Below are positions 13,832 to 61,105 of a stretch of 64,000 nucleotides of DNA, piece after piece. The stretch lies in IMG/VR virus record IMGVR_UViG_3300022225_001767. One strand, 5' to 3'. The notes beneath the pieces are model-generated. The model searched no databases. It was not told the origin of the DNA and saw only the letters and a list, made by a program, of their open reading frames with translations. The stretch is from a virus. The position numbers were made by a program, and so were the translations under genes. How positions within the stretch are numbered: position 1 is the first letter of the stretch; each line of letters starts with the position of its first letter.

Positions 13832-13951
13832 CGAAGGTTAAGTTATTGATTTATAAGGTTTTTTTTGAGGGGTGGGTTCCCACCCACTACCTGCCCCTCA
13901 CCCTCCCCGCTACGCCAAACAATAATACCAAAAACACAAAGAGGCACCGCT

Positions 13952-15208
13952 ATGCGACGCGTATTACGTTTAATTGTTCCCACTCTCGTTTTCTCTTTTG
14001 TTACACTCACCAATATTGCACTCGCGTCACCGACTACAGAAGAAAGACTTGTCGCCAAATACAACAGCGCAATGTTCCAAATATCGACATCACTAAAAGG
14101 CGCAAGCGGCATCACCTCATACGGCACAGGCTTTCTCATAAAAAACAATCTCCTTGTTACCAATTATCACGTTATTGATGATTATTTTCTTGCGCAGGAA
14201 GACTATAAAATTATTGTTACGCGAGGCACCGACAAAACCATCTATCCGGTATCGCTTCACACCGTCGATATGCTCAACGACCTCGCCATATTTACGGTAG
14301 AGACAAATACAGACGACATTACGCCTTTTACATTAGGGGAAAGTAACGTTCAACAGGGCGCAACCGTATACAGCATGGGCAACCCAAAAAGCTCTGGTTT
14401 TATGATTGTGCCTGGCGTATACAACGGTGTACGAGAGGCTTCCAAAAAGGAACTCCTTAATTTTACTGGCTCGCTTAATAGCGGCATGAGCGGAGGACCT
14501 GTTATCGACAGTAACGAAATACTCGTAGGTGTCAATGTGTCCTCTTCTGGCAATGGCATGGGATACGCGGTCAATGCAAAACACCTTAAGGCGCTAGTGG
14601 CTCACGTCAACAGCAACCCGCCCAATACAGATAGCCTTTCTGTTGCAGAAGAACAGCTTCATGCGTGGTCATCGCTTATCACCGATATGCTGAAAGGTAA
14701 ATTCAGCGCGCCGTCAAATGCACTAGAAGTAGACTCGCCGTTCGTGAAATGCAACAGCGATAAAGTTGATGATGACGCTATCTCTGTCCATATAAAACAT
14801 TGCTATACCTTGGAGGATTTGGGACTTGGCGGTAGACACACATTAGAGGGTTTTTCAGTATTTTCTTACCACGTAGAAGACAGCGAACCAAGCTTTATAC
14901 GGCGTATAATGGGGTTAACCCCTCTGTTTCTCTTGTCTCAATTATCCCCTCTCATTCAGGACGATGACGCTTCTCTCTACAGCAGTTCATCCTGTGAGTT
15001 TATCGTTACCACATTAACAAACAATCGTCGGGCAAAGATCAGAAACTGCGCAGTACGTGGCAACACATCGCCGTCCTATTGGATACATCGCGTCACCATT
15101 TCTTACGCCATCGACAGCAACAATGCGATCGCCAATGACATTACATTTCAAGGGCTATCCCCCATGGCGAGTGCCACATTGCTTGCTGACATTATAGAGG
15201 AGCTTTAA
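13952..15208 (+). CDS. exported trypsin-like (S1) serine protease
   Basis: Signal-like N-terminus; VTNYHV (His), DLAI (Asp), SGMSGGP (Ser). Confidence 0.85.
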   Translation: MRRVLRLIVPTLVFSFVTLTNIALASPTTEERLVAKYNSAMFQISTSLKGASGITSYGTGFLIKNNLLVTNYHVIDDYFLAQEDYKIIVTRGTDKTIYPVSLHTVDMLNDLAIFTVETNTDDITPFTLGESNVQQGATVYSMGNPKSSGFMIVPGVYNGVREASKKELLNFTGSLNSGMSGGPVIDSNEILVGVNVSSSGNGMGYAVNAKHLKALVAHVNSNPPNTDSLSVAEEQLHAWSSLITDMLKGKFSAPSNALEVDSPFVKCNSDKVDDDAISVHIKHCYTLEDLGLGGRHTLEGFSVFSYHVEDSEPSFIRRIMGLTPLFLLSQLSPLIQDDDASLYSSSSCEFIVTTLTNNRRAKIRNCAVRGNTSPSYWIHRVTISYAIDSNNAIANDITFQGLSPMASATLLADIIEEL

Positions 15209-19960: not shown

Positions 19961-20677
19961 ATGACATGCTCTCACCACCCAATGCCAGAGTTACAGGTAA
20001 GCTACCATGATGCCTCTTGCATTATTGACGGTAAAGGAATTTCTTTTGTTGACGACAATCTCATCATGCACTCAGGGCTTCATGAGCTGGGTATGACATA
20101 TGTTATCGCCAACAGCCTCCAAAAGAACGACCAAGAAAATCACATCTTTCTTAGGCGTGCCGACATGGTGCCTGATGGCATTATTGATACAATAAAAACG
20201 ACTGTTAATGTAAAAAGGAATCACTTAACACTCTATCGCAAAGATGTGGCGGACTTCTTTCACGACGCAACCGGCTTTTTCGTCACTTACTTTGAACATG
20301 GTATTGGGATAACTAAGCTTCATAGCGCTGGTGGCCCTTGCGTTAAACAAAACGTCTATGCCACCGTGGTAACCCCAGATGGCGAATCTTTTACCGGCAC
20401 AAACCTTTGCCGCAACCCTCAAAAGGTATGCCCTCGTGAGGTGCAGGGCATGAAATCCGGCGAAGGATACGAACTTTGTCAAAGCGTGTGCCAGCAGGAC
20501 GGGCACGCAGAGGTTAATGCGCTTCGTGCGGCGGGAAATAAAGCAAAAGGCAGCATCCTGTACCTCTCTGGTCACCTCTATGCCTGTGGTGGCTGCCAGT
20601 CAGCGATAAAAGAAGCGAACATTGCAGAACTTCGCATCATGAACAATCGCGTTCCTTTCTATCGCTCAAAACCATAA
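19961..20677 (+). CDS. protein with C-terminal cytidine/dCMP deaminase-like domain
   Basis: GHAEVNAL ... HLYACGGC zinc motif (HxE/CxxC). Confidence 0.75.
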   Translation: MTCSHHPMPELQVSYHDASCIIDGKGISFVDDNLIMHSGLHELGMTYVIANSLQKNDQENHIFLRRADMVPDGIIDTIKTTVNVKRNHLTLYRKDVADFFHDATGFFVTYFEHGIGITKLHSAGGPCVKQNVYATVVTPDGESFTGTNLCRNPQKVCPREVQGMKSGEGYELCQSVCQQDGHAEVNALRAAGNKAKGSILYLSGHLYACGGCQSAIKEANIAELRIMNNRVPFYRSKP

Positions 20678-26865: not shown

Positions 26866-26951
26866 CCATCAATTTGTGGCCTGTGTTTGTTGACACAGGC
26901 TGTGTTTGTTGTTAATATAATAACCGTCAACACAACAACAGGAATGCACAC

Positions 26952-28918: not shown

Positions 28919-28942
28919 TACGAGCAATATGTCGGTTTCTTA

Positions 28943-28993
28943 TTGACAACACTCTCAGTTTTTGAGATACTAATCCTGTCAACACAACAGGAG
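28943..28993 (+). promoter_or_regulatory. Box-type promoter cassette (closest to consensus)
   Basis: TTGACAacactctcagtttttgaGATACTaatcctGTCAACACAACAGGAG. Confidence 0.85.
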
Positions 28994-28999
28994 AGAGAC

Positions 29000-38167: not shown

Positions 38168-38305
38168 GGCTGTTACCTCGTTGTGTTGACGTAGTCAATT
38201 TTACTAAAATTAACATCATAAGTCAACTTTTTTGAGGTTTTTGGTGTGAGCTATGAGGGTAAAACTCGCCCCAGAAAAAACGGGGCGAGGTATGAAATTG
38301 AGATG

Positions 38306-42775: not shown

Positions 42776-44166
42776 ACTACCCAGCGACATCGCTTCGCTC
42801 TGATCACTGGGCTTCTACAGTCTAGCTTTGAAGCTAGGCCGCTTCTTTTTTCTCAGATCCAACAGCAAACTTCGATAGCTCGAAGGCTTTCGCTTTACTA
42901 GCTGATTTCTGCTGAGATATGGGGATTACCCTTGCGACGATCCCAGCCGCAATTAAGTCTGTCTCACCTGTTTTTGCTATGCTTTTAGCCGCTGAGAAGT
43001 CGCGGTTTTGATACGTTCCGCAAGCAGTACAGGTGAAATATCTATCGCTCAATGTTAAAACATGGCGTTGGCCGCATTCTGAACAAATCCCTGTGGATTT
43101 TTCAAAGCGACCAATTTCGTGATAGAGCTTACCTTCCAACTCAGCCTTGTATTTCGAGAGCTGGGTAATTAAGCCCATCACATTGTCAGCCACCATACTG
43201 CCGTTGAACTTTTGCATCGCTTTCACATTCAAATCCTCAAACACCAGAATATCAGTTTCATTGGCTATCTGTCGTGACACTTGATGTGCAAAGTCGAGTC
43301 TTTGCCGTGAGATTTTGCCGTGAAGCTTATTGATGCGTTGCTTGGTCTTTTGCCAGCGATTAGACCCTTTCTTTCGCCTTGCAAGCTGGCGTTGCAAGTG
43401 GCTTAATTTCTCTTTTGATTGTTTTAAGAACTTCGGGTTGTTGGCAGTAAAGCCATTTGAGCCCACTACCGTTTGCTTAGAGTTAATATCAAAACCTGTG
43501 ATGCTTTCCAGTAGTTTTTTAGCGGCTTTACATTCCACTTCTTGCGTAATGCTGCATTCCCATTTTCCATGACGATACTGGACAGTAACGGTCTTAATTT
43601 GGCTCACTAAGTCGCGGTGTAAGATGATGGGTATTTTACCCACTTTTGGGATGCTAATAGAGTCATTTTCAATGCGTATGCAATTGGAATTGTTCACCGC
43701 TCGAAAGCTGTCATTGTGAAGCTTCTTTCGCTTATAAGAGACTTTATGTTTTGGAAAACGTTGCAACCGACCTTTTGAAAAGGCGTTTTTTAGTGCTGTT
43801 TCCAGATCTCTTGCGACTTGCTGGGCTGCTGCTGAGTCAAACGCCTTTACCCAAGCAAACTCATCAAAAGACTTTAGTTCTTTGAGCAATGAAGCCATAT
43901 CCCTGTAAAACAAGAACGTCTTATCGTACTCGTATCGACGCATTGTTTCAGACAACAGCAGGTTCCAAATGCCACGGGCTGTTGCACCAAACTCAATGAG
44001 TCTAGCCTCCTGCTCCAGCGTTGGCTTAAGCCTGTAATTGTATCTGAGCGTCTTTTTCATATACTGTATAGATTACTGTATATAGTAGAGCTGTCAACCT
44101 GAATTTACCGATTCATCCCCGCGACATCACTTCGTTCTGATCACGGGGTTTTCTCGGCAACATTAG
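42772..44166 (-). mobile_element. IS200/IS605-family tnpB-only element
   Basis: Related subterminal hairpins at about 42780-42812 and 44116-44148; right end TTCAC; TTTAT target 5' of left end; no tnpA. Confidence 0.85.
42834..44060 (-). CDS. tnpB: RNA-guided endonuclease TnpB
   Basis: N-terminal YRLKPT helix-turn-helix-type segment, RuvC GFDIN / VFEDLNV / RD, Zn finger CSECG...CTACG. Confidence 0.93.
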   Translation of the reverse strand: MKKTLRYNYRLKPTLEQEARLIEFGATARGIWNLLLSETMRRYEYDKTFLFYRDMASLLKELKSFDEFAWVKAFDSAAAQQVARDLETALKNAFSKGRLQRFPKHKVSYKRKKLHNDSFRAVNNSNCIRIENDSISIPKVGKIPIILHRDLVSQIKTVTVQYRHGKWECSITQEVECKAAKKLLESITGFDINSKQTVVGSNGFTANNPKFLKQSKEKLSHLQRQLARRKKGSNRWQKTKQRINKLHGKISRQRLDFAHQVSRQIANETDILVFEDLNVKAMQKFNGSMVADNVMGLITQLSKYKAELEGKLYHEIGRFEKSTGICSECGQRHVLTLSDRYFTCTACGTYQNRDFSAAKSIAKTGETDLIAAGIVARVIPISQQKSASKAKAFELSKFAVGSEKKEAA

Positions 44167-44526
44167 ATAAACGCACACGGCGCTTGCGTGGCACGTTCAC
44201 TGTCACGCAATACGTAAACAACAAGGAAATATATAATGGTTAACTTTGATTTGGGTCCTAAAGGGGCCGAAGCAAGATGACAGCAAATGCAGAGACTTGT
44301 TTTGGGTCAATGCCCAAGGTGAATGGTGGTCTGAAAACGACCAAGAGTGGGTGCCAGCAGAGCGCTATGACGTAACGTGGCTGCAAACGATTGCCGCTAA
44401 GTACGCGGCATAATAAATTAAGTTTTGACTTTCGCTGTTTTTTTAGGAAAACATGAAAAAAACGTTGACAATAAACACAGGTTTTGCGATACTAATCCTG
44501 TCAACACAACAACGGAGTAACACTTT

Positions 44527-44877: not shown

Positions 44878-44995
44878 TTATCGTTAGCGGGGAGATATTT
44901 ATCTACAATAATCTCCCCACGCTTATAAAAAAACATTGACAATACACACAGCATTTGAGACACTAGCCCTGTCAACACAACAACGGAGCAACACC

Positions 44996-45487
44996 ATGAT
45001 TTCAACCCTAACCAAAGCTGAATGCATCGACGCGCTATCTCACTTTGATCGCGATGACATTGTTGTAGCAACATGCACGTTCGGTGACCGCGCTAGAACG
45101 ATGCAGGCAGTACCACTGGGCGACCTTACATCTGGCTTTATCACCTCATCGAGCTACTCAGACTCTGGGTATGCCGTGGTTGAGGAGGGCGATGAAGATG
45201 ACAGCGACACCCCTATTCACTTCTTCGAACCGGGCGACGTCTCTGAACATATGACGGTAGGCGACTTTCTCGATAACCTAACGGGACTTGATGATGACGA
45301 CCTTGTTGTCGCTGCGTGGAACTACGGAGACCGCGGAAATACGATTCAGGCGATTGGTTTTAATGAGGTTAATGAGGTTTATCTTAACCGCAGCCCATCC
45401 TCGGACTCTGGCTACGCCGTAGTTGAGGAGGGGGATGAGGATGATGACGCAGTGCGCGCGCTGGTCATCAACTACGAGGCCCTTTAA
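44996..45487 (+). CDS. acidic protein with two tandem about 75-aa repeats
   Basis: SDSGYAVVEEGDEDD occurs twice; GDRARTMQA / GDRGNTIQA. Confidence 0.78.
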   Translation: MISTLTKAECIDALSHFDRDDIVVATCTFGDRARTMQAVPLGDLTSGFITSSSYSDSGYAVVEEGDEDDSDTPIHFFEPGDVSEHMTVGDFLDNLTGLDDDDLVVAAWNYGDRGNTIQAIGFNEVNEVYLNRSPSSDSGYAVVEEGDEDDDAVRALVINYEAL

Positions 45488-45559
45488 GTAACACTATGCG
45501 GGTGGCGATTTGCCACCCCTATCAAGACCTAACACAATCATCGTTCAACAGGAGCTATC

Positions 45560-45928
45560 ATGTCTCACGCATCAACGAACAATAAACAAAAAACAAACCG
45601 TGTTAACGTGGGGAAACTGTGGACAGCGCTGCGAGATAAACTGAATGCGCAATCGTCGCTATTGGCGATGAAGCTTGATGATGTGCTCAAAATGGAACAA
45701 AAACTTAATGCTGAAAACGGGGTCTGCGGCAGTGAGTACATCGCCAAAACCTCCCTGCTCTATCATATTGCGAGCCAGCCGTTAGGTAACATGAACTATA
45801 AGTTAGTAGGTCAGATGCGAGATAGCCTTATCATTGTGCTTACACTCGTCTTAGCCACTAACCCTGAGAGCGATTACTTATCCGAATACGAAGGTGCCTT
45901 GGCAACCATTCTAATGAATCAAGGATAA
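45560..45928 (+). CDS. hypothetical protein upstream of candidate sRNA
   Basis: AGGAG RBS. Confidence 0.72.
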   Translation: MSHASTNNKQKTNRVNVGKLWTALRDKLNAQSSLLAMKLDDVLKMEQKLNAENGVCGSEYIAKTSLLYHIASQPLGNMNYKLVGQMRDSLIIVLTLVLATNPESDYLSEYEGALATILMNQG

Positions 45929-45940
45929 GGATAATGCGCC

Positions 45941-46121
45941 CTGATGCGTCAACCATCAGTATTGAACTTAAAGTCCCGGCACCTGTTGTTTTGTTGACGT
46001 AAAACGCCTTCGCCGGGCACCCTTTACGTCGGCGGCCTGTTGTGTTGACGCCTTCTCGCCGCCGACCCTCACATTGTTGTGACGACAACGCCCGTACCAG
46101 GTTATGCTGGCGGGCTTTTTT
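45941..46121 (+). ncRNA. candidate antisense sRNA against the GTCAACACAAC leader box
   Basis: GC stems 45975-45980/46012-46017 and 46028-46036/46058-46066 enclose CCTGTTG(TTT)TGTTGACG; U-tract terminator 46090-46121. Confidence 0.6.
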
Positions 46122-46218
46122 GCGCCTGTTAAATTTGATTATTTTCAATTTAATGAGAAAAACATTGACAACGCACGCATAATTTGAGATGCTCACCTGG
46201 TCAACACAACAACGGAGA

Positions 46219-46410
46219 ATGACAATGTCAGAAAAGAAAATTCAATTAGTTCGCGAGGTCGCGAGCGAAGCAGGCAAGCTTAAACGTAAAATCATCAATG
46301 CGCTTGATGAGTCTAACCCAAAATCGTACGAAGTGTCTCAGGCAGTCTCACAGCTTATGGCTGATCTTAATGAGCTTGTGCAAAGCGCCCCTGTATCCGA
46401 CAACGGTTAA
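46219..46410 (+). CDS. small hypothetical protein
   Basis: ATG after cassette. Confidence 0.65.
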   Translation: MTMSEKKIQLVREVASEAGKLKRKIINALDESNPKSYEVSQAVSQLMADLNELVQSAPVSDNG

Positions 46411-46461
46411 CTGCGCCTGTGCGCCCATTGTGGCGCACACCCATGTAAAGGAATTCATAAC

Positions 46462-47052
46462 ATGAATAACGCTGTTCCACTATCTGAAGAATACCTTGAT
46501 GCGCTACGCTCTGGCATCAATGGCAAAAGCACTGCGTTTGTTTCGTTGTTACTGGTCGCGTTTGACGAGCTGTGCGATGCAGAAACCCTTGAGGCGAATA
46601 TCGCCGCCATACTTGAAGCCAATGCGGGTGGTGCCGCGGATGTTAATGCCGTTATCCCCATGGCGGTTCAGTTCCGCACCTGCGCTCGCTCATTTGCTGC
46701 CCTACCACCTGAGTACAGTCAGGCTGAGCTAGAGGACGCGAATGCGTTACTTAAAACCCTGGGTTACACTATTGATTTAGTCACGATATACGCCAACGTC
46801 ATAAGCCGCATTCATTTTGCTAAAGAGGGCGTGGTGCTACGCGACTTAGTCAACAACGGTGACACGCCAGAGGATTTGATTGCGCCTTACCCTGACGAAG
46901 CCCCTGAAGGCAAGGTGAGAGAAACGTGGCTGGCACGGGTCAAAGAAGTGGGTCGCGACGACATTGTGGCATGGCATGACGATGTGATGGCTCGCCATGA
47001 TGATGGGGATGCGATCATTACCATGATACTGACGCAATCAGAATGGGAATGA
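46462..47052 (+). CDS. hypothetical protein
   Basis: AAGGA RBS. Confidence 0.72.
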   Translation: MNNAVPLSEEYLDALRSGINGKSTAFVSLLLVAFDELCDAETLEANIAAILEANAGGAADVNAVIPMAVQFRTCARSFAALPPEYSQAELEDANALLKTLGYTIDLVTIYANVISRIHFAKEGVVLRDLVNNGDTPEDLIAPYPDEAPEGKVRETWLARVKEVGRDDIVAWHDDVMARHDDGDAIITMILTQSEWE

Positions 47053-47218
47053 CACGTTGTGACAACATCCATTTGAAAGGCGCACTGCGCCTTTTTTTGC
47101 TTCCCCCTCTGGCGGTTTCGTCGTTTAATAATCAACCACTGTGCACAAAATTATTGACAACGCTCTCAGTTTTTGCGACACTTATCCTGTCAACACAACA
47201 ACAGAGAGAAGCCTCACT

Positions 47219-47563
47219 ATGAGCAACGAACAATCACCATCGACTTCAGAGCTTGAGTCCACCGTGTTAGACTCGCTAGCGAACCATCAGCCTGACACCA
47301 CACTCGTGAAAACACTCGTGGGTGAGTCTATGGGAGAGCGCAATGTCTCTGAGGACGCGGACGCCGATGAGCTTCTTTCGGCATATGAAAATTGGGCGCA
47401 TGCCGTAGGCGAACTTAAACTCGCTGAAGACACCTACTACAACGCTGACATGGAGAGCGAGGAAGCGGAGGAGGCAGAGCAAGAAAAAAATGCGGCTGAA
47501 AGCGAAGCGTCTAGCTATGCCAATGACGTCAAACGCGCACTGCGCACCTACCTTGGCAGCTAA
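47219..47563 (+). CDS. highly acidic helical protein
   Basis: ATG after cassette; ESEEAEEAEQE. Confidence 0.72.
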   Translation: MSNEQSPSTSELESTVLDSLANHQPDTTLVKTLVGESMGERNVSEDADADELLSAYENWAHAVGELKLAEDTYYNADMESEEAEEAEQEKNAAESEASSYANDVKRALRTYLGS

Positions 47564-47677
47564 CGTCAATCGCTATTTCTGACATTGGCCTTGCGTGTGC
47601 GAGGTCAAACCCATTGACAACGCTCTCAGCATCTGAGATACTAACCTTGTCAACACAACAACACAGAGAGCGCGCTC

Positions 47678-48181
47678 ATGAAAAAGAATGTATCACCACG
47701 ATTTGAACTGCCACCGGCGATTAAAAATCTTGCTGCTCAGTTAGACAAAGATAAGATAAGCTACCGCAGCGAAAATCGACTTAAAATGTCGTCGCTTTTA
47801 TCTTTCTTGGATATCAGCTTCACAACACCTGAAAGTTTTCTAGGCAAAGGGAATGGATGGTCGTGTTATTATAATGCCGAGTACGGGATTCAGATTGACG
47901 GCGCTTTCCCTCTTGGTGCAGGTGGCGTAGAATACCTCAGCAAAATCCAAGTAGAAGGCGCAAGGTTGAATAGTGTCTACAATGACTACGTGACTATCTT
48001 CTCGCTGTGGGATTTTCTTAATGAAGAAGGCCGTGCGTATGCGTTGAGTGTGTATGCTGAGGATATTCAGAAACTCAAAGAAGAAAAGACCGCTGAAGTC
48101 AACGCCGCTCAAAAGGCGCTTGATGATATCGTCAACGCAGAACAGGCGCTCTCTCAGTCGCTGTGTAGCAAGGCGTCATAA
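47678..48181 (+). CDS. hypothetical protein
   Basis: ATG after cassette. Confidence 0.72.
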   Translation: MKKNVSPRFELPPAIKNLAAQLDKDKISYRSENRLKMSSLLSFLDISFTTPESFLGKGNGWSCYYNAEYGIQIDGAFPLGAGGVEYLSKIQVEGARLNSVYNDYVTIFSLWDFLNEEGRAYALSVYAEDIQKLKEEKTAEVNAAQKALDDIVNAEQALSQSLCSKAS

Positions 48182-49469: not shown

Positions 49470-51641
49470 CTATTCATTCTCTTGTGGCAAGGCCGCTTGC
49501 TCACGTGCCGCCTCACACGCGTCTTTAATGGCGTTAAACACCTCGTACGCCACGCTATTAAGCTCTGGCGGTGTGTCACTATTGGAAAACCCTTTAGCTT
49601 GCGCCAATCGTCCCGAACTGCGTTCAAATTGATAGGTGAACGTTTCATCAGACCTATTACCTGTAGACAGGGCGAAAATCACCGCTGAGCCATCCGTACA
49701 ACGGTCAGCATAGTAGCGTGTGCCTACACAGTGATGTTGAGCACGACCTAATGCACGGAGGGCTTTTGTGTCCTCCGGCAGTGTTAGTGTGACGTGTGAC
49801 GGGAGGCTTTCAGTGATAGTGTCAAGCTGCGCAATAGCATCGGCCTGATAGAAACGCGCATTGACGGTACTGATTGAGAAGTCACGTTGCTGCTTGTTGC
49901 TTAAGTAGCTATGAAATGCTTCACCGTAGTCTTTCTTAGACGCAAGCCATTTACGCACCAACGCACACTGTTTGGCGCTTTCATCAGGGCAATCTCGTGC
50001 AATGAGCGTTGCTAACATACGAAACACATCTCGCGCTTCGGTAATGGCGTTATCCATCACAACGGCTACCATTTCATCGTGTGACAAAAAAGCCAAACAG
50101 GTGCGTAGTGACGGCGCATCAATGGCAAGCCCTGCGCGCTTCTGCGCCTGTTTACCTGTGCCTAATGCACTATTAATCTGCGCAAGAAACTGAATGTATC
50201 CGTGACGGTCGAGTTTGCCACGTGAATTGGTAAACACGCTCTGCAATGCGCTTAGTGCGGTCAAGGACTCCGCCTCTTGACTGTCGAACAAGAACTGCAC
50301 CTCTTGAGGGTGTTTTGAACCAATGAGCATTTTGGTCATCGCCTTGGGCGAATTAACACTCTTGAAGTCAAACAGATCATACCCGTAATCATTATGCAAG
50401 ATGAGGTAGTTCTTTAATGACGTAAGCAACGCGAACGCGGGGCTTTCATTGAAGAGTGTTTTATCATAATCCTTATTAGAACTCATAATGCTCTCACGTA
50501 CACGGTAGAGACACTTAAACGTGCTGTCTGAGACATTGGGGTGCATCGCGACACGCATTTGGATAGTGTGATCGGGGTCGTACGCCAGCATATCCAAGAT
50601 GCCCGACGGGACATTACCACTGCTTAGCAGCTTGCGTACTAATAAGGAGTCAACAGGCTCGCGCTCGATGAATTGTGAAACGACCTCCGGTGACAATGTA
50701 TCTACGCGGTCAAGAATGGCGTAGCACAACGCGTCACAGCTGCCCTGGTATTCCAACAGCATCGCTTCCGCTTGCGCATCTGAGAAATTAAGCCGGTGAA
50801 AACCTTCATCAATACCGTATTGAGAGGCGTCGCACTTAACCAGCTCAATAAAATCGGATTGCTTCATGTCAGCGTTTTTAAATGCGGCGTCGTACACATC
50901 CGATACATACCTTGCTCGACAGTCTGTATTGGCATTGTTTTGCACATACGCTAAAACTTCGCGAAATTGCTCCATCGTATGTTCGTGATTATCTAGCAAC
51001 GCAATGCGTATCCGGCATGTGCTATTAGGCTCTATTTCCAGCGCTAACAGGCGATTAAACAACGAACGTGAACATGCGGCGTTTTCAGCCACTTTGATGT
51101 ATATGTTGGTATGGAGCGTCTTATCTTCAACGCGTGGAACAGCAGCAACGATATCGCTCAATACAGCATCACATGACGCAGCTTGCCCCATTTCAGCAAG
51201 CAGCGATGCATTATTCATTGCAATAATAGCATCAGCACGTTCCCACGGGAATGCGCGATGATTGACTATGTTCTGCGCCATGAAACTTACATTTCCGTCA
51301 GAATACTCACCATCAATAACGCGATTGAGAAGACGGTTATACAGTGCCTCTGGCACTCGCTCGCTGTACAGTGAAAGCACATCCAGCGCAGGATTAAGCG
51401 CCAGCAATTCGCTGACCTCATTGTCGCTAAATGCGGGGTGATTGAGCATCTGTGCCATACTCTCAATACTTTTAGCATTGGCGTAGTACCCCGCCACAAA
51501 TCTCGGTGTCTCGCTTTCTAATACATCCCGCATGATACACTTGGGGAAATTAGGTGCACTCAGTGCGACCTGCATCTTTCGCGAGCAGCAGCTATTAAAC
51601 ATTTTTTTTAGTTGCGATGGACTGTAATAACGGTGAGTCAT
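49470..51641 (-). CDS. helical-repeat protein with C-terminal PcfJ-like domain
   Basis: ALNP/VAENA/VAMHPN repeats; LRALGRAQHHCVG...YADRC...QAKGFSN. Confidence 0.68.
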   Translation of the reverse strand: MTHRYYSPSQLKKMFNSCCSRKMQVALSAPNFPKCIMRDVLESETPRFVAGYYANAKSIESMAQMLNHPAFSDNEVSELLALNPALDVLSLYSERVPEALYNRLLNRVIDGEYSDGNVSFMAQNIVNHRAFPWERADAIIAMNNASLLAEMGQAASCDAVLSDIVAAVPRVEDKTLHTNIYIKVAENAACSRSLFNRLLALEIEPNSTCRIRIALLDNHEHTMEQFREVLAYVQNNANTDCRARYVSDVYDAAFKNADMKQSDFIELVKCDASQYGIDEGFHRLNFSDAQAEAMLLEYQGSCDALCYAILDRVDTLSPEVVSQFIEREPVDSLLVRKLLSSGNVPSGILDMLAYDPDHTIQMRVAMHPNVSDSTFKCLYRVRESIMSSNKDYDKTLFNESPAFALLTSLKNYLILHNDYGYDLFDFKSVNSPKAMTKMLIGSKHPQEVQFLFDSQEAESLTALSALQSVFTNSRGKLDRHGYIQFLAQINSALGTGKQAQKRAGLAIDAPSLRTCLAFLSHDEMVAVVMDNAITEARDVFRMLATLIARDCPDESAKQCALVRKWLASKKDYGEAFHSYLSNKQQRDFSISTVNARFYQADAIAQLDTITESLPSHVTLTLPEDTKALRALGRAQHHCVGTRYYADRCTDGSAVIFALSTGNRSDETFTYQFERSSGRLAQAKGFSNSDTPPELNSVAYEVFNAIKDACEAAREQAALPQENE

Positions 51642-51813
51642 TATGTAAACCCTGTGTGTTGACGATTTATGCCAATTATATCTAAATAAAGCCGTTAAAT
51701 CAACATAAAAGTGCGAGCGTTGCCCTCGCTATGATGCCGCAAAACCAAAACAATTGACTTCACTCACAGGCTGTGAGACACTTCTTTTTGTCAACACAAC
51801 ACAGGAATACATT

Positions 51814-58900: not shown

Positions 58901-59187
58901 CCCTTAGCAGCAAACACAACGGCACAGCATAGGGTTGTGCCGATTATTTAAGCGGGAGACACTATGGCATTGCCTACATTCCATGAATTACTGTCACTTG
59001 GCATCAAAACGTATGGTGACGCTGATAGCGAAAGCGCAGACGGCATTTATGAATTAAATGGTGAGACGTATGTTTTAACAGGCACCACGGTTATCAAGCA
59101 AAGTGATGTTGATTAGGCTCATCGTCTATTGACAACGCTCATCGAATTTGCGATACTAACCCTGTCAACACAACAAAGGTTAGCCCC

Positions 59188-59793: not shown

Positions 59794-60279
59794 ATGAGCA
59801 AAACCTTTAATCTTTTCGCGCCCGTTGTATCTGATTTGAACACCGTTGTTCAGCAGAACAAAAATACTGTATCTATCGCTTCACTTGTCAGTATTGCGGC
59901 AATCGCAGCCTTTCAAGCCACCATCAATATGGGCAAGCAGGATGTGATCACGAAGGTAGGCAAGCTTGACCCTGACTTCATCTTAACAGAAACTCGTCGC
60001 CCATTGTCGTTTTATGAACAAGCAGTGGTGTGTGCGGCTGAAGCGACCATCATCGAAACCCTGTCACTTCACAGCATCACGCCAGATGAAAAAATTCGTG
60101 ATATCATCGTAGAGCAATGGATAAACGAAGGGGCGTTTTTGACGGCTTCTCGCAGCACCGCAGGGTCAATGATGACAGAGGCAGAGCGTGCCGCTGCACG
60201 AGGCCGATCTGAAGAAGAAATTCTTGCCGAATTAGCTTCCGCAGAGGGCGGATGTGCGGGTGGTGCATGCACCATATAG
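59794..60279 (+). CDS. hypothetical protein with C-terminal GCAGGACTI Cys pair
   Basis: ATG after cassette; paralog of 12653-13144. Confidence 0.75.
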   Translation: MSKTFNLFAPVVSDLNTVVQQNKNTVSIASLVSIAAIAAFQATINMGKQDVITKVGKLDPDFILTETRRPLSFYEQAVVCAAEATIIETLSLHSITPDEKIRDIIVEQWINEGAFLTASRSTAGSMMTEAERAAARGRSEEEILAELASAEGGCAGGACTI

Positions 60280-60385
60280 GGTGCACTTTCGCCACTTCTC
60301 ACTTTTAGGTACGTTGCACGAAACGGCAGCCTGTTATGACACGCTGCCAACATCACCACGTTATAATCACCAACAAGGACACACT

Positions 60386-61105
60386 ATGCGTACGTCATTT
60401 GTCACCTTGCTGTTTTCTGTCTTTCTGTCTACATCGGCTTTCGCTGTTGATGTCGTAAAGAAAAGCAGTAGCGGTATTTGCCACGACACCAGCAGCAGCT
60501 GGTATGAAAAAACGAAGAACTTCACAGCCTATGCCACCATGGAGGCCTGTATTGATTCTGGTGGACGCGCACCGCGCAATTACACCGGCACCAAACCGAA
60601 AGACAACCTGCCGCAAGGCGAACGCTATGATCGCGACGCATGGGAACACTGGGTGGATGACGATAATGATTGTCAGAACACGCGCGCTGAGGTCTTGATT
60701 GCTCACTCAACGACCCCCGTTCTTTACAATAACATTATCAAACGATGTTATGTGACACGGGGGAAGTGGTATGGCGTCTACTCCGGCAAATTCTATTATG
60801 ACGACGACGATCTTGATATTGACCACATTGTGCCCCTTGCTTATGCGCATGCGCACGGTGGTGATAAATGGAGCGCCGCTCAAAAGCGTGCTTTTGCCAA
60901 CGATATGGACAACCTTCTCCCTGTTAGCGCATCATTAAACAGGCAGAAATCGGCAAAAGGGCCGACTGATTGGATGCCGCCCTATCAACCTTACCGCTGT
61001 GAGTATTTGGGTGAGTTTGACGGCATTATGAAAAAGTACTCCCTTGAGTATTTCCCTCACGAACTGCGCGTTATCAACAAAATGAAAAGCGCCTGCGGTA
61101 TGTAA
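60386..61105 (+). CDS. secreted HNH-family endonuclease (DUF1524-like)
   Basis: Signal peptide; YDRDAWEHW, CQNTRAEVL, LDIDHIVPL, NLLPVSASLNRQKS. Confidence 0.85.
   Translation: MRTSFVTLLFSVFLSTSAFAVDVVKKSSSGICHDTSSSWYEKTKNFTAYATMEACIDSGGRAPRNYTGTKPKDNLPQGERYDRDAWEHWVDDDNDCQNTRAEVLIAHSTTPVLYNNIIKRCYVTRGKWYGVYSGKFYYDDDDLDIDHIVPLAYAHAHGGDKWSAAQKRAFANDMDNLLPVSASLNRQKSAKGPTDWMPPYQPYRCEYLGEFDGIMKKYSLEYFPHELRVINKMKSACGM

What the first reader, a model, noticed from the sequence alone, without database searches (positions are those of the whole stretch)
45941..46121. Candidate master antisense sRNA displaying the complement of the regulon's 5' box
SEEN: this intergenic stretch is the only place I found the box reversed without a matching promoter and gene. 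Two GC-clamped hairpins (CCCGGC/GCCGGG; GTCGGCGGC/GCCGCCGAC) carry CCUGUUGUUUUGUUGACG and CCUGUUGUGUUGACG, each followed by GCCUUC. The second is a perfect 15-nt complement of CGUCAACACAACAGG, which is the box plus the start of the Shine-Dalgarno. A 5' hairpin (CUGAUG/CAUCAG) shows the sense seed CGUCAAC, and a U-tract terminator closes the unit. INFERENCE: one RNA could silence dozens of mRNAs by pairing over their RBS, as an analogue of the multi-target phage P1 C4 antisense RNA. Alternatively these are decoy operator sites.
Basis: partly seen in the sequence, partly recalled or inferred. Interest (0 to 1): 0.86.

Follow-up and report, generated by a model that had tools for sequence, protein, structure and literature searches.

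The report
Anti-leader small RNA module, marine element
Behind a two-gene operon of an uncultured marine mobile element lies a conserved, folded, non-coding RNA module whose hairpin loops mirror the 12-base tag that begins about 40 of the element's messenger RNAs, so it probably shuts those genes down together, though no experiment has shown this.

Summary
GTCAACACAACA occurs 44 times in the window, where chance predicts 0.5. In 39 cases it starts 6-7 nt after a near-identical sigma-70-type promoter, so it forms bases +1 to +12 of a leader about 24 nt long. Positions 45941-46121 hold no gene. They carry a hairpin showing the sense seed CGUCAAC, then two GC-clamped hairpins showing the complement of the tag, a small hairpin, and a terminator that works only on the + strand.

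New evidence:
- This stretch is the best-conserved segment of the locus in five strain haplotypes (97-100% identity, against 84-95% around it).
- The few changes that fall in stems keep pairing on the + strand.
- A paralogue about 13.7 kb before the window start has a 21-nt loop identical to hairpin 2, on an unrelated stem.
- The tag ends a median of 12 nt before the ATG, inside the ribosome's footprint.

My best reading is a trans-acting anti-leader RNA that represses translation (confidence about 0.6). It is not "the master": the element has several such RNAs. It has no convincing promoter of its own, so it is probably the 3' UTR of the operon.

No discrete transcript and no repression have been shown. 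A relative at 47% protein identity keeps the tag but has no such RNA at this spot.

The scan has already noted sister RNAs in other windows of this same genome.

The parts
44936..44982 (+). Regulon-type promoter (TTGACA 44936-44941, 17-nt spacer, GACACT 44959-44964) and box GTCAACACAACA (44971-44982). It drives the operon that ends in the RNA module.
44996..45487 (+). Gene A (163 aa, no known family), first gene of the operon.
45560..45928 (+). Gene B (P0001, 122 aa, helical, no known family or fold). It has no box leader of its own. The RNA module starts 13 nt after its stop codon.
45941..45959 (+). HP0: stem CUGAUG/CAUCAG with the 7-nt loop CGUCAAC. This is the sense seed, complementary to GUUGACG in the loops of HP1 and HP2.
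   Evidence: The loop change C>U in the L007 group keeps G.U pairing.
45975..46017 (+). HP1: stem CCCGGC/GCCGGG and a 31-nt loop holding the imperfect anti-box CCUGUUGUUUUGUUGAC (45982-45998). An inner helix GUUUUG/UAAAAC closes the apical loop UUGACG.
46028..46066 (+). HP2: stem GUCGGCGGC/GCCGCCGAC and the 21-nt loop CUGUUGUGUUGACGCCUUCUC. With the last stem base C46036 it forms the exact 15-nt anti-box CCUGUUGUGUUGACG (46036-46050).
   Evidence: The loop is identical to hairpin PB of the paralogue.
46076..46089 (+). Small hairpin GUUGU-GACG-ACAAC, in which a truncated anti-box pairs with a sense box.
46090..46121 (+). Intrinsic terminator: stem 46090-46115 followed by UUUUUU at 46116-46121. 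The U tract is on the + strand only.
46165..46211 (+). Next regulon promoter and box (46200-46211) for the 61-aa gene at 46225-46410. It marks the downstream boundary of the module.

Best explanation
Positions 45941-46121 encode a + strand regulatory RNA module of about 180 nt. It is transcribed at least as the 3' end of the gene A-gene B operon, from the promoter at 44936, and is closed by the terminator at 46090-46121. It may be released by processing. A weak internal promoter is possible but not convincing.

Two GC-clamped hairpins hold out G/U-rich loops. HP2 is exact. HP1 is a variant that fits the longer leaders. Both can pair with the C/A-rich tag GUCAACACAACA(GG), which forms the first 12-14 nt of about 40 mRNAs in this window. 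The tag ends a median of 12 nt before the start codon and contains ACA motifs of the kind known to enhance translation. A duplex there would therefore block 30S binding and silence the whole block of genes.

The module's own operon starts with the same tag, which would give negative feedback. HP0 carries a sense copy of the seed. It could kiss or mask one anti-tag loop and so set a threshold.

Shown by the data: the sequence, the fold, the complementarity, the conservation, the recurrence of the loop on unrelated stems, and the position of the target.

Inferred: that a discrete RNA exists, that it pairs in trans, that the effect is repression, and the role of HP0.
For: 1. The box is real and lies at the 5' end of the mRNAs. 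There are 44 copies against 0.48 expected. All 39 promoters have a 17-nt spacer, and the box starts 6 nt (34 cases) or 7 nt (5 cases) after the -10 hexamer.

2. Only the loop bases match the boxes, always in antisense. Predicted duplexes with all leaders are -19 to -26 kcal/mol, against -11 +/- 3.6 for random 35-mers.

3. The fold is more stable than shuffles (z = -2.6 to -2.8). The HP2 anti-box has a mean unpaired probability of 0.58.

4. The U tract of the terminator is on the + strand only, and the scan found no promoter on the minus strand downstream of the module.

5. In five haplotypes whose gene B is 87-98% identical, the module is 97-100% identical. Genes around it are 89-95% identical and other intergenic DNA is 84-90%. 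No anti-box base varies.

6. All three changes that fall in predicted pairs keep pairing on the + strand (G-C>G.U, U.G>U-A, G.U>A-U).

7. A 1-nt insertion in one haplotype group breaks the 112-aa antisense ORF, so the stretch is not coding.

8. The paralogue at L142:15772-16032(-) has its own promoter and terminator, a sense CGUCAACAC segment and two hairpins. Loop PB equals loop HP2 at 21 of 21 positions. The four stems (6, 9, 10 and 10 bp) are all fully paired and unrelated in sequence, and one has a G.U pair that fits only this strand.

9. The box ends 7-19 nt (median 12) before the ATG in 36 of the 38 leaders with an assigned start; two 0-nt values look like mis-assigned starts.

10. ACA motifs upstream of the SD enhance translation, and the GU-rich R1 region of GcvB silences them by pairing (PMC3879156).

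11. Metatranscriptome contigs from four studies cover the stretch.
Against: - No discrete small transcript, 5' end, strand or abundance is shown. All RNA runs are assembled contigs, three of them long contigs that also span the neighbouring genes, and DNA carry-over cannot be excluded.
- There is no promoter of the element's type in front of the module. The only candidate is weak: TTGGCA, 16 nt, AAGGAT, inside the end of gene B.
- No compensatory double changes were found among orthologues, because the stems are invariant. The relatives are all close.
- In the one distant relative recovered (P0013, 47% identical to gene B; L147, GC 55%), the promoter and box are conserved, but the syntenic spot holds an unrelated 111-aa minus-strand gene. 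No anti-box hairpin is seen in 12.4 kb.
- The 3' half of the loop (GCCUUCUC) has no obvious target in the leaders.
- HP1's seed is partly self-paired.
Confidence: 0.6

Rival explanations
1. The pairing is the same but the outcome is opposite. The RNA binds the extreme 5' end of the tagged mRNAs and protects them from 5'-end-dependent decay, so it activates or stabilises the regulon.
For: The tag is the very first 12 nt of the mRNA. In most leaders the exact complement stops before the SD; only 8 of 39 have GG directly after the box.
Against: The leaders are only about 24 nt long, and the duplex would end 7-19 nt (median 12) from the ATG, inside the usual 30S footprint. The leaders are C/A-rich and too short to hold an inhibitory fold that pairing could open. 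The tag looks like an ACA-type enhancer, and covering such an enhancer is repressive in the GcvB case.
Confidence: 0.1
2. It is a purely cis-acting 3' UTR element. The hairpins stabilise or insulate the upstream operon. The loops pair only within the same molecule, either with HP0 or with the operon's own 5' tag at 44971, and do not act on other mRNAs.
For: The module follows gene B directly with no convincing promoter. HP0 carries a 7-nt sense seed that can pair with either loop (-8.5 kcal/mol). In the paralogue's MFE fold, the sense segment pairs with the first anti-box in a long-range helix. The operon's own leader carries the tag.
Against: If this were a general 3' device, it should follow many operons, yet only one such module exists in 64 kb. 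The paralogue is a free-standing unit with its own promoter and no upstream gene in the same transcript. Two or more anti-tag loops per RNA exceed what one internal partner needs.
Confidence: 0.13
3. The reversed boxes work as double-stranded DNA. They are decoy or auxiliary operator sites for a protein that binds the box at the promoters.
For: The box directly abuts the promoters and could be part of a protein site. Many promoters also carry a CTCA-N5-6-TGAG dyad over the -10 hexamer, which suggests a DNA-binding regulator exists.
Against: A DNA site needs no flanking inverted repeats. Yet all four anti-box copies (two here, two in the paralogue) sit in loops closed by perfect GC-rich stems of 6-10 bp with unrelated sequence. 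The changes seen keep RNA pairing through G.U. The units end in terminators. The more obvious operator candidate is the dyad in the spacer, not the box.
Confidence: 0.05
4. The functional RNA is read from the minus strand and displays the sense tag in its loops. It would act as a decoy or sponge for whatever binds the tag, for example the anti-tag RNAs made elsewhere in the element.
For: The minus strand folds equally well (z = -3.2), and the stems are Watson-Crick on both strands.
Against: The scan found no minus-strand promoter downstream of the module. The terminator's U tract is on the + strand only. The G.U pair in paralogue stem PA, and the G-C>G.U change beside HP1, would be C.A mismatches on the minus strand. 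The paralogue's promoter points the same way as the + strand here.
Confidence: 0.04
5. It is inert debris: inverted fragments of promoter-leader cassettes left by rearrangements, with no function.
For: The cassettes are highly repeated and clearly recombine. In the L007 group the downstream promoter is joined to a different gene.
Against: The stretch is the most conserved segment of the locus. On the minus strand no promoter remnant flanks the boxes. The identical loop recurs on unrelated stems.
Confidence: 0.04

Closest known systems
c4 antisense RNA of phages P1/P7 (immI; Citron & Schuster 1992, PMC312442, cited in PMC8546580) and, from my own knowledge, the P4 CI RNA
   Same: Both are small structured RNAs of a mobile element whose exposed segments are complementary to the ribosome-binding region of the element's own mRNA. 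Both are made from a longer transcript rather than a dedicated simple gene, and both act as an RNA repressor.
   Different: There is no match to the Rfam C4 model, even at E <= 10. c4 controls one operon (icd-ant), which lies downstream in the same transcript. Here the target is a 12-nt tag at the 5' end of about 40 separately promoted mRNAs. The RNA lies at the 3' end of its operon, and the element carries several such RNAs.
GcvB sRNA and its C/A-rich (ACA) target elements (PMC3879156)
   Same: A G/U-rich seed (UGUUGUGUUG-like) pairs with C/A-rich sequences just upstream of the SD that act as translation enhancers. It is a many-target regulon.
   Different: There is no Rfam GcvB hit. The seed sits in hairpin loops, not in a long single-stranded R1 region. 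The targets are identical copies of one tag at +1 rather than loosely similar sites. The RNA is encoded on a mobile element, not next to gcvA.
Cuckoo RNAs (alpha-r14 / RSs0680 family) of alpha-proteobacteria (PMC4615179)
   Same: The build is modular: 2-4 adjacent hairpins each carry the same loop motif, while the stems vary freely. There are several copies per genome. The loops are thought to pair with ribosome-binding sites.
   Different: The loop motif there is the general anti-SD CCUCCUCCC. Here it is a 13-21-nt complement of an element-specific 5' tag, and a sense copy of the seed is also present in the same RNA. The host clade and context are different.
CUP-type or PeSL-type repeated promoter-leader cassettes of plasmids and T4-like phages (from my own knowledge and the scan's notes; not checked in a paper here)
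   Same: Many small accessory genes each carry a near-identical promoter-leader cassette.
   Different: As far as I know, those systems are controlled by proteins or hairpins within the leader. No anti-leader RNA has been described for them.

Membership tests
C4 antisense RNA (Rfam C4) | Sequence and structure match to the family covariance model | tested here: not met
   cmscan at the gathering threshold on the whole window gave 0 hits. With E <= 10 on 45880-46180, the five hits were unrelated families far below threshold, and none was C4.
C4 antisense RNA (Rfam C4) | Two exposed segments complementary to the RBS region of the element's own target mRNA | tested here: met
   The HP1 and HP2 loops are complementary to the box plus the start of the SD. 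The box ends 7-19 nt (median 12) before the ATG in 36 of 38 leaders.
C4 antisense RNA (Rfam C4) | Processed out of the transcript that also carries its target downstream | tested here: inconclusive
   The module is the 3' end of an operon whose 5' leader carries the tag. Processing cannot be seen in contig data.
GcvB | Match to the Rfam GcvB model; single-stranded GU-rich R1 region | tested here: not met
   No hit. The GU-rich seed is confined to hairpin loops.
Cuckoo RNA (alpha-r14/RSs0680) | 2-4 adjacent hairpins with the same loop motif and variable stems | tested here: met
   HP1, HP2 and the paralogue's PA and PB: the loops share CUGUUGU..GUUGACG..CCYUC, and the stems are unrelated and fully paired.
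Cuckoo RNA (alpha-r14/RSs0680) | Loop motif CCUCCUCCC | tested here: not met
   The loops read CUGUUGUGUUGACGCCUUCUC. The family definition is from PMC4615179.
Terminator-ended trans-acting sRNA (generic) | Own promoter, discrete transcript, intrinsic terminator | tested here: inconclusive
   The terminator is present. There is no convincing promoter. A transcript cannot be resolved from contigs.
Anti-tag RNA family of this element (paralogues noted by the scan) | Sense-seed segment, then one or two GC-clamped hairpins with the loop CUGUUGUGUUGAC..., then a terminator, on the strand of the regulon genes | tested here: met
   Comparison with L142:15772-16032(-).

The most novel reading that the evidence does not exclude
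A large marine mobile element runs an RNA 'tag / anti-tag' circuit. Dozens of independently promoted accessory genes start with the same 12-nt tag, which doubles as a translation enhancer. Several small RNAs carry the anti-tag in hairpin loops, and at least one of them is the 3' UTR of a tagged operon. Each RNA also carries a sense copy of the tag that masks one loop. The block of genes would then be expressed in a burst and afterwards silenced by its own products, as a self-timing, threshold-setting switch made of RNA alone.
Probability: 0.3. Interest if true: 0.85.

Novelty: new variant of a known kind. Interest (0 to 1): 0.68.

Why it matters
If the pairing works as predicted, one short RNA motif would control translation of a whole island of about 40 (element-wide perhaps 100) mostly unknown genes on an abundant marine mobile element. 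Many of these genes look like establishment or anti-defence genes.

That would be a compact example of regulon design by a shared 5' tag, and it could be used as a portable on/off handle. It would also give a direct way to ask when these orphan genes are needed.

The system is simple to test in a laboratory host: a 12-nt tag, a 21-nt loop, and compensatory mutants.

Tried and rejected
- Public phage and plasmid collections do not hold the locus. Megablast and blastn matched only the nearby IS200/IS605 element.
- No whole genome is held for this window. The records behind the loci cannot be searched.
- IMG/VR: no relative of gene B and no promoter-box match.
- GTDB genomes: no relative of gene B. 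The 15-mer scan returned only single chance hits.
- PcfJ-like homologues at about 40% identity (L134-L137) lie in unrelated contexts without any repeated box.
- I looked for co-variation by scanning JGI metagenomes for a loop with the GTGCTGAC variant. In the window, GTGCTGAC on the + strand occurs only inside genes.
- Walking upstream reached the paralogue at about -13.7 kb.
- RNA runs: only contigs were available, so there is no information on ends, strand or level. The parts left uncovered in run X15 mean nothing.
- Rfam at permissive thresholds gave only sub-threshold noise for both the module and the paralogue.
- Gene B: no Pfam family. The AlphaFold model is a helical bundle of modest confidence (pLDDT 68) with no PDB fold match at E <= 0.001, so there is no sign that it is an RNA chaperone.
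- The literature search for the box or anti-box as text found only unrelated primers.
- The TATAAT in the HP0-HP1 spacer of some haplotypes has no -35 partner and is absent from the window's haplotype, so I rejected it as a promoter.

Full report
**What is there.** The window is part of an uncultured marine mobile element. It has no counterpart in the phage or plasmid collections, and most of its proteins have no known family.

Its most striking feature is a repeated promoter-leader cassette. GTCAACACAACA occurs 44 times at one mismatch or fewer, against 0.48 expected. Thirty-nine copies sit behind aTTGACAAc-N-TGAGAtACT promoters, always with a 17-nt spacer. The box begins 6 nt (34 cases) or 7 nt (5 cases) after the -10 hexamer. 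The box is therefore bases +1 to +12 of the mRNA. The 5' UTRs have a median length of 24 nt, and the box ends a median of 12 nt before the ATG.

**The finding's stretch.** Gene B (45560-45928) stops 13 nt before a gene-free, highly structured stretch. In order, it contains:
- HP0 (45941-45959), with loop CGUCAAC, the sense seed.
- HP1 (45975-46017), with stem CCCGGC/GCCGGG and a 31-nt loop.
- HP2 (46028-46066), with stem GUCGGCGGC/GCCGCCGAC and the 21-nt loop CUGUUGUGUUGACGCCUUCUC.
- A small hairpin (46076-46089).
- A terminator (46090-46115) followed by U6.

The + strand folds better than shuffles (z = -2.6 to -2.8). Against the whole window, only the loop bases 46036-46050 find matches, always in antisense to the boxes, and the stems are unique.

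HP2 is the exact complement of GUCAACACAACAGG. HP1 carries a 3-nt insertion that makes it a 16-of-17 match to the longer leaders GUCAACACAACAACAGG. That class includes the neighbouring genes at 44500, 44971, 46200 and 47189. Part of HP1's seed is held in an inner helix.

Predicted duplexes of the loops with all leaders are -19 to -26 kcal/mol, against -11 +/- 3.6 for random 35-mers.

**Strand and coding.**
- The U tract follows the terminator only on the + strand, and the scan found no minus-strand promoter downstream of the module.
- The 112-aa antisense ORF (45858-46196) has no family and is split by a 1-nt insertion in one haplotype group.
- I see no promoter of the element's type before HP0. 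The best candidate is weak: TTGGCA, 16 nt, AAGGAT, within the last codons of gene B.
- No terminator lies between the promoter at 44936 and position 46090. The module is therefore at least the 3' UTR of the gene A-gene B operon, whose own leader carries the tag.

**Conservation.** Gene B has relatives at 87-98% identity on many marine contigs. I fetched 13 loci, which represent five further haplotypes.

The module is 97-100% identical to them. The flanking genes are 89-95% identical and the other intergenic DNA is 84-90%. No base of either anti-box varies. The differences fall in the HP0 loop, the HP0-HP1 spacer, the 3' part of the HP1 loop, and between hairpins.

The three differences that touch predicted pairs all keep pairing on the + strand, two of them through G.U. 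The HP0 loop change C>U still pairs with the G of GUUGACG. There are no double compensatory changes, because the stems do not vary among these close relatives.

**A paralogue gives the structural argument.** Walking upstream reached a second unit about 13.7 kb before the window start, at L142:15772-16032 on the strand equivalent to the window's + strand. It has:
- its own promoter (TTGACA-N14-TGA-GAGGAT);
- a sense CGUCAACAC segment;
- two hairpins, PA (GCCUGGCACC/GGUGCUAGGC, with one G.U pair) and PB (GCUGCACGCU/AGCGUGCAGC);
- a terminator.

Its fold z-score is -5.7. The PB loop is identical to the HP2 loop at 21 of 21 positions, and the PA loop differs at two positions. The four stems are fully paired and unrelated in sequence. 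One constant loop on interchangeable stems is what a displayed RNA seed looks like. It is hard to reconcile with a double-stranded DNA site.

In the paralogue's minimum-energy fold, the sense segment pairs with the first anti-box. This echoes the complementarity between HP0 and the loops here.

**Expression.** Six RNA libraries hold the locus. In four that I laid, from four studies, contigs cover the module. Three are long contigs of a relative about 95% identical, and one of these has a depth of about 1700. The fourth run has a near-identical 178-nt contig over 45845-46005. Contigs cannot show ends, strand or a separate small RNA, and DNA carry-over cannot be ruled out. This counts as presence in RNA libraries and nothing more.

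**A distant relative.** An exhaustive HMMER search found a 47%-identical homologue of gene B. Its contig (L147, GC 55% against 47% here) carries the same promoter and the same box, with eight copies of GTCAACAC in 12.4 kb. So the tag is an old, strongly kept feature of this element family. At the syntenic spot, however, there is an unrelated 111-aa minus-strand gene and no anti-box hairpin. The RNA is therefore not tied to gene B. Whether that element has anti-tag RNAs elsewhere is unknown.

**Mechanism.** The tag is C/A-rich with two to three ACA triplets directly upstream of the SD. Such motifs enhance translation, and the GU-rich seed of GcvB silences them by pairing (PMC3879156).

Here the complementary G/U-rich sequence is displayed in hairpin loops, and every target lies within about 20 nt of the start codon. 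The most likely action is therefore block-wise translational repression by pairing (confidence about 0.6). If pairing occurs at all, I put repression at about 0.8.

Because the module is made from a tagged operon, the circuit would be self-limiting. HP0 may mask one loop. The purpose of the conserved 3' half of the loop (GCCYUCU) is unexplained. It resembles an anti-SD sequence, but it lies on the wrong side of the anti-box for contiguous pairing.

**Comparison and novelty.** The unit works like c4 of P1 (an RNA repressor of the element's own RBS), like GcvB (a GU seed against a CA enhancer, with many targets), and is built like the cuckoo RNAs (the same loop on variable hairpins; PMC4615179). 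It is a member of none of these: there is no Rfam hit and the loop motif is different.

What is new is the combination of:
- an identical 12-nt tag at +1 of dozens of separately promoted genes;
- several anti-tag RNAs on the same element;
- a sense copy of the tag inside each RNA.

The scan had already noted sister RNAs in other windows of this genome. I verified one of them independently. Two first-reader notes claim that a downstream region uses GTCAGC leaders with matching CUGA loops. I could not reach that DNA, and my own search for such a loop found nothing.

Noticed in passing
window-wide, e.g. 28940-28977, 47611-47648, 51752-51789: In 24 of 39 regulon promoters the spacer and extended -10 form a dyad of 4 bp or more per arm ((T)CTCA-N5-6-TGAG(A), or CTCACA-N-TGTGAG). 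The right arm always lies over the TGAGA of the -10 region. Only 21% of shuffled controls reach this. This is a candidate operator for a dimeric DNA-binding regulator, and so a second, transcriptional layer of control.
   Followed up: partly
window-wide, the 6-7 nt between the -10 hexamer and the box: The untranscribed discriminator is usually aaTCCT, aaCCCT or aaCCTT, which is anti-SD-like. At several promoters it forms a DNA dyad with the AGGA/AGG after the box (e.g. 2412-2436, 28972-28994, 59155-59184). Its meaning is unknown.
   Followed up: no
L147:1-12384: A relative with GC 55% (the window has 47%) and only 47% protein identity in gene B keeps the promoter, discriminator and box almost letter for letter (GAGATACTAACCCTGTCAACACAACA). 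It also shares gene content with the window (238-aa dCMP-deaminase-like gene, TnpB), and it carries SSB and Y4mA_C-like genes that I did not compare with the window.
   Followed up: partly
window 51642-51680 (minus strand): The PcfJ-like 723-aa gene on the minus strand (49470-51641) has its own TATAAT promoter and a box variant, GTCAACACACAGG. So minus-strand genes also belong to the regulon, as does the one at 38190.
   Followed up: partly
window 42834-44060 (minus strand): A TnpB (IS200/IS605 family) gene. Its DNA is 82-88% identical to copies on Pseudoalteromonas plasmids, a weak hint at the host clade.
   Followed up: no
window 44926-47700, RNA run X17: A 9-kb contig of a relative about 95% identical has a mean word depth of about 1700 in a 142-million-letter metatranscriptome. 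The element, or its DNA, was extremely abundant in that sample. In run X15, a contig end at 44988, 6 nt after the box, is joined to an Illumina adapter. Because the box is a repeat, this cannot be read as an RNA end.
   Followed up: no
window 26875-26904: An 11-bp perfect hairpin (TGTGGCCTGTG / CACAGGCTGTG) encloses the TTGA of the -35 hexamer of the promoter for the box at 26926. That promoter is unusual, with -10 TATAAT.
   Followed up: no
window 13865-15208, 19961-20677, 60254-61105: Among mostly orphan genes there are a trypsin-like protease, a dCMP/cytidine-deaminase-like protein and a GmrSD_C/HNH nuclease-like protein. This fits an accessory, defence or anti-defence island.
   Followed up: no
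L007-L010 against window 46122-47650: In one haplotype group the 61-aa and 196-aa genes downstream of the module are missing, and the promoter and box after the terminator are joined to the 167-aa gene. So genes are gained and lost at the repeated cassettes, while the RNA module stays.
   Followed up: partly
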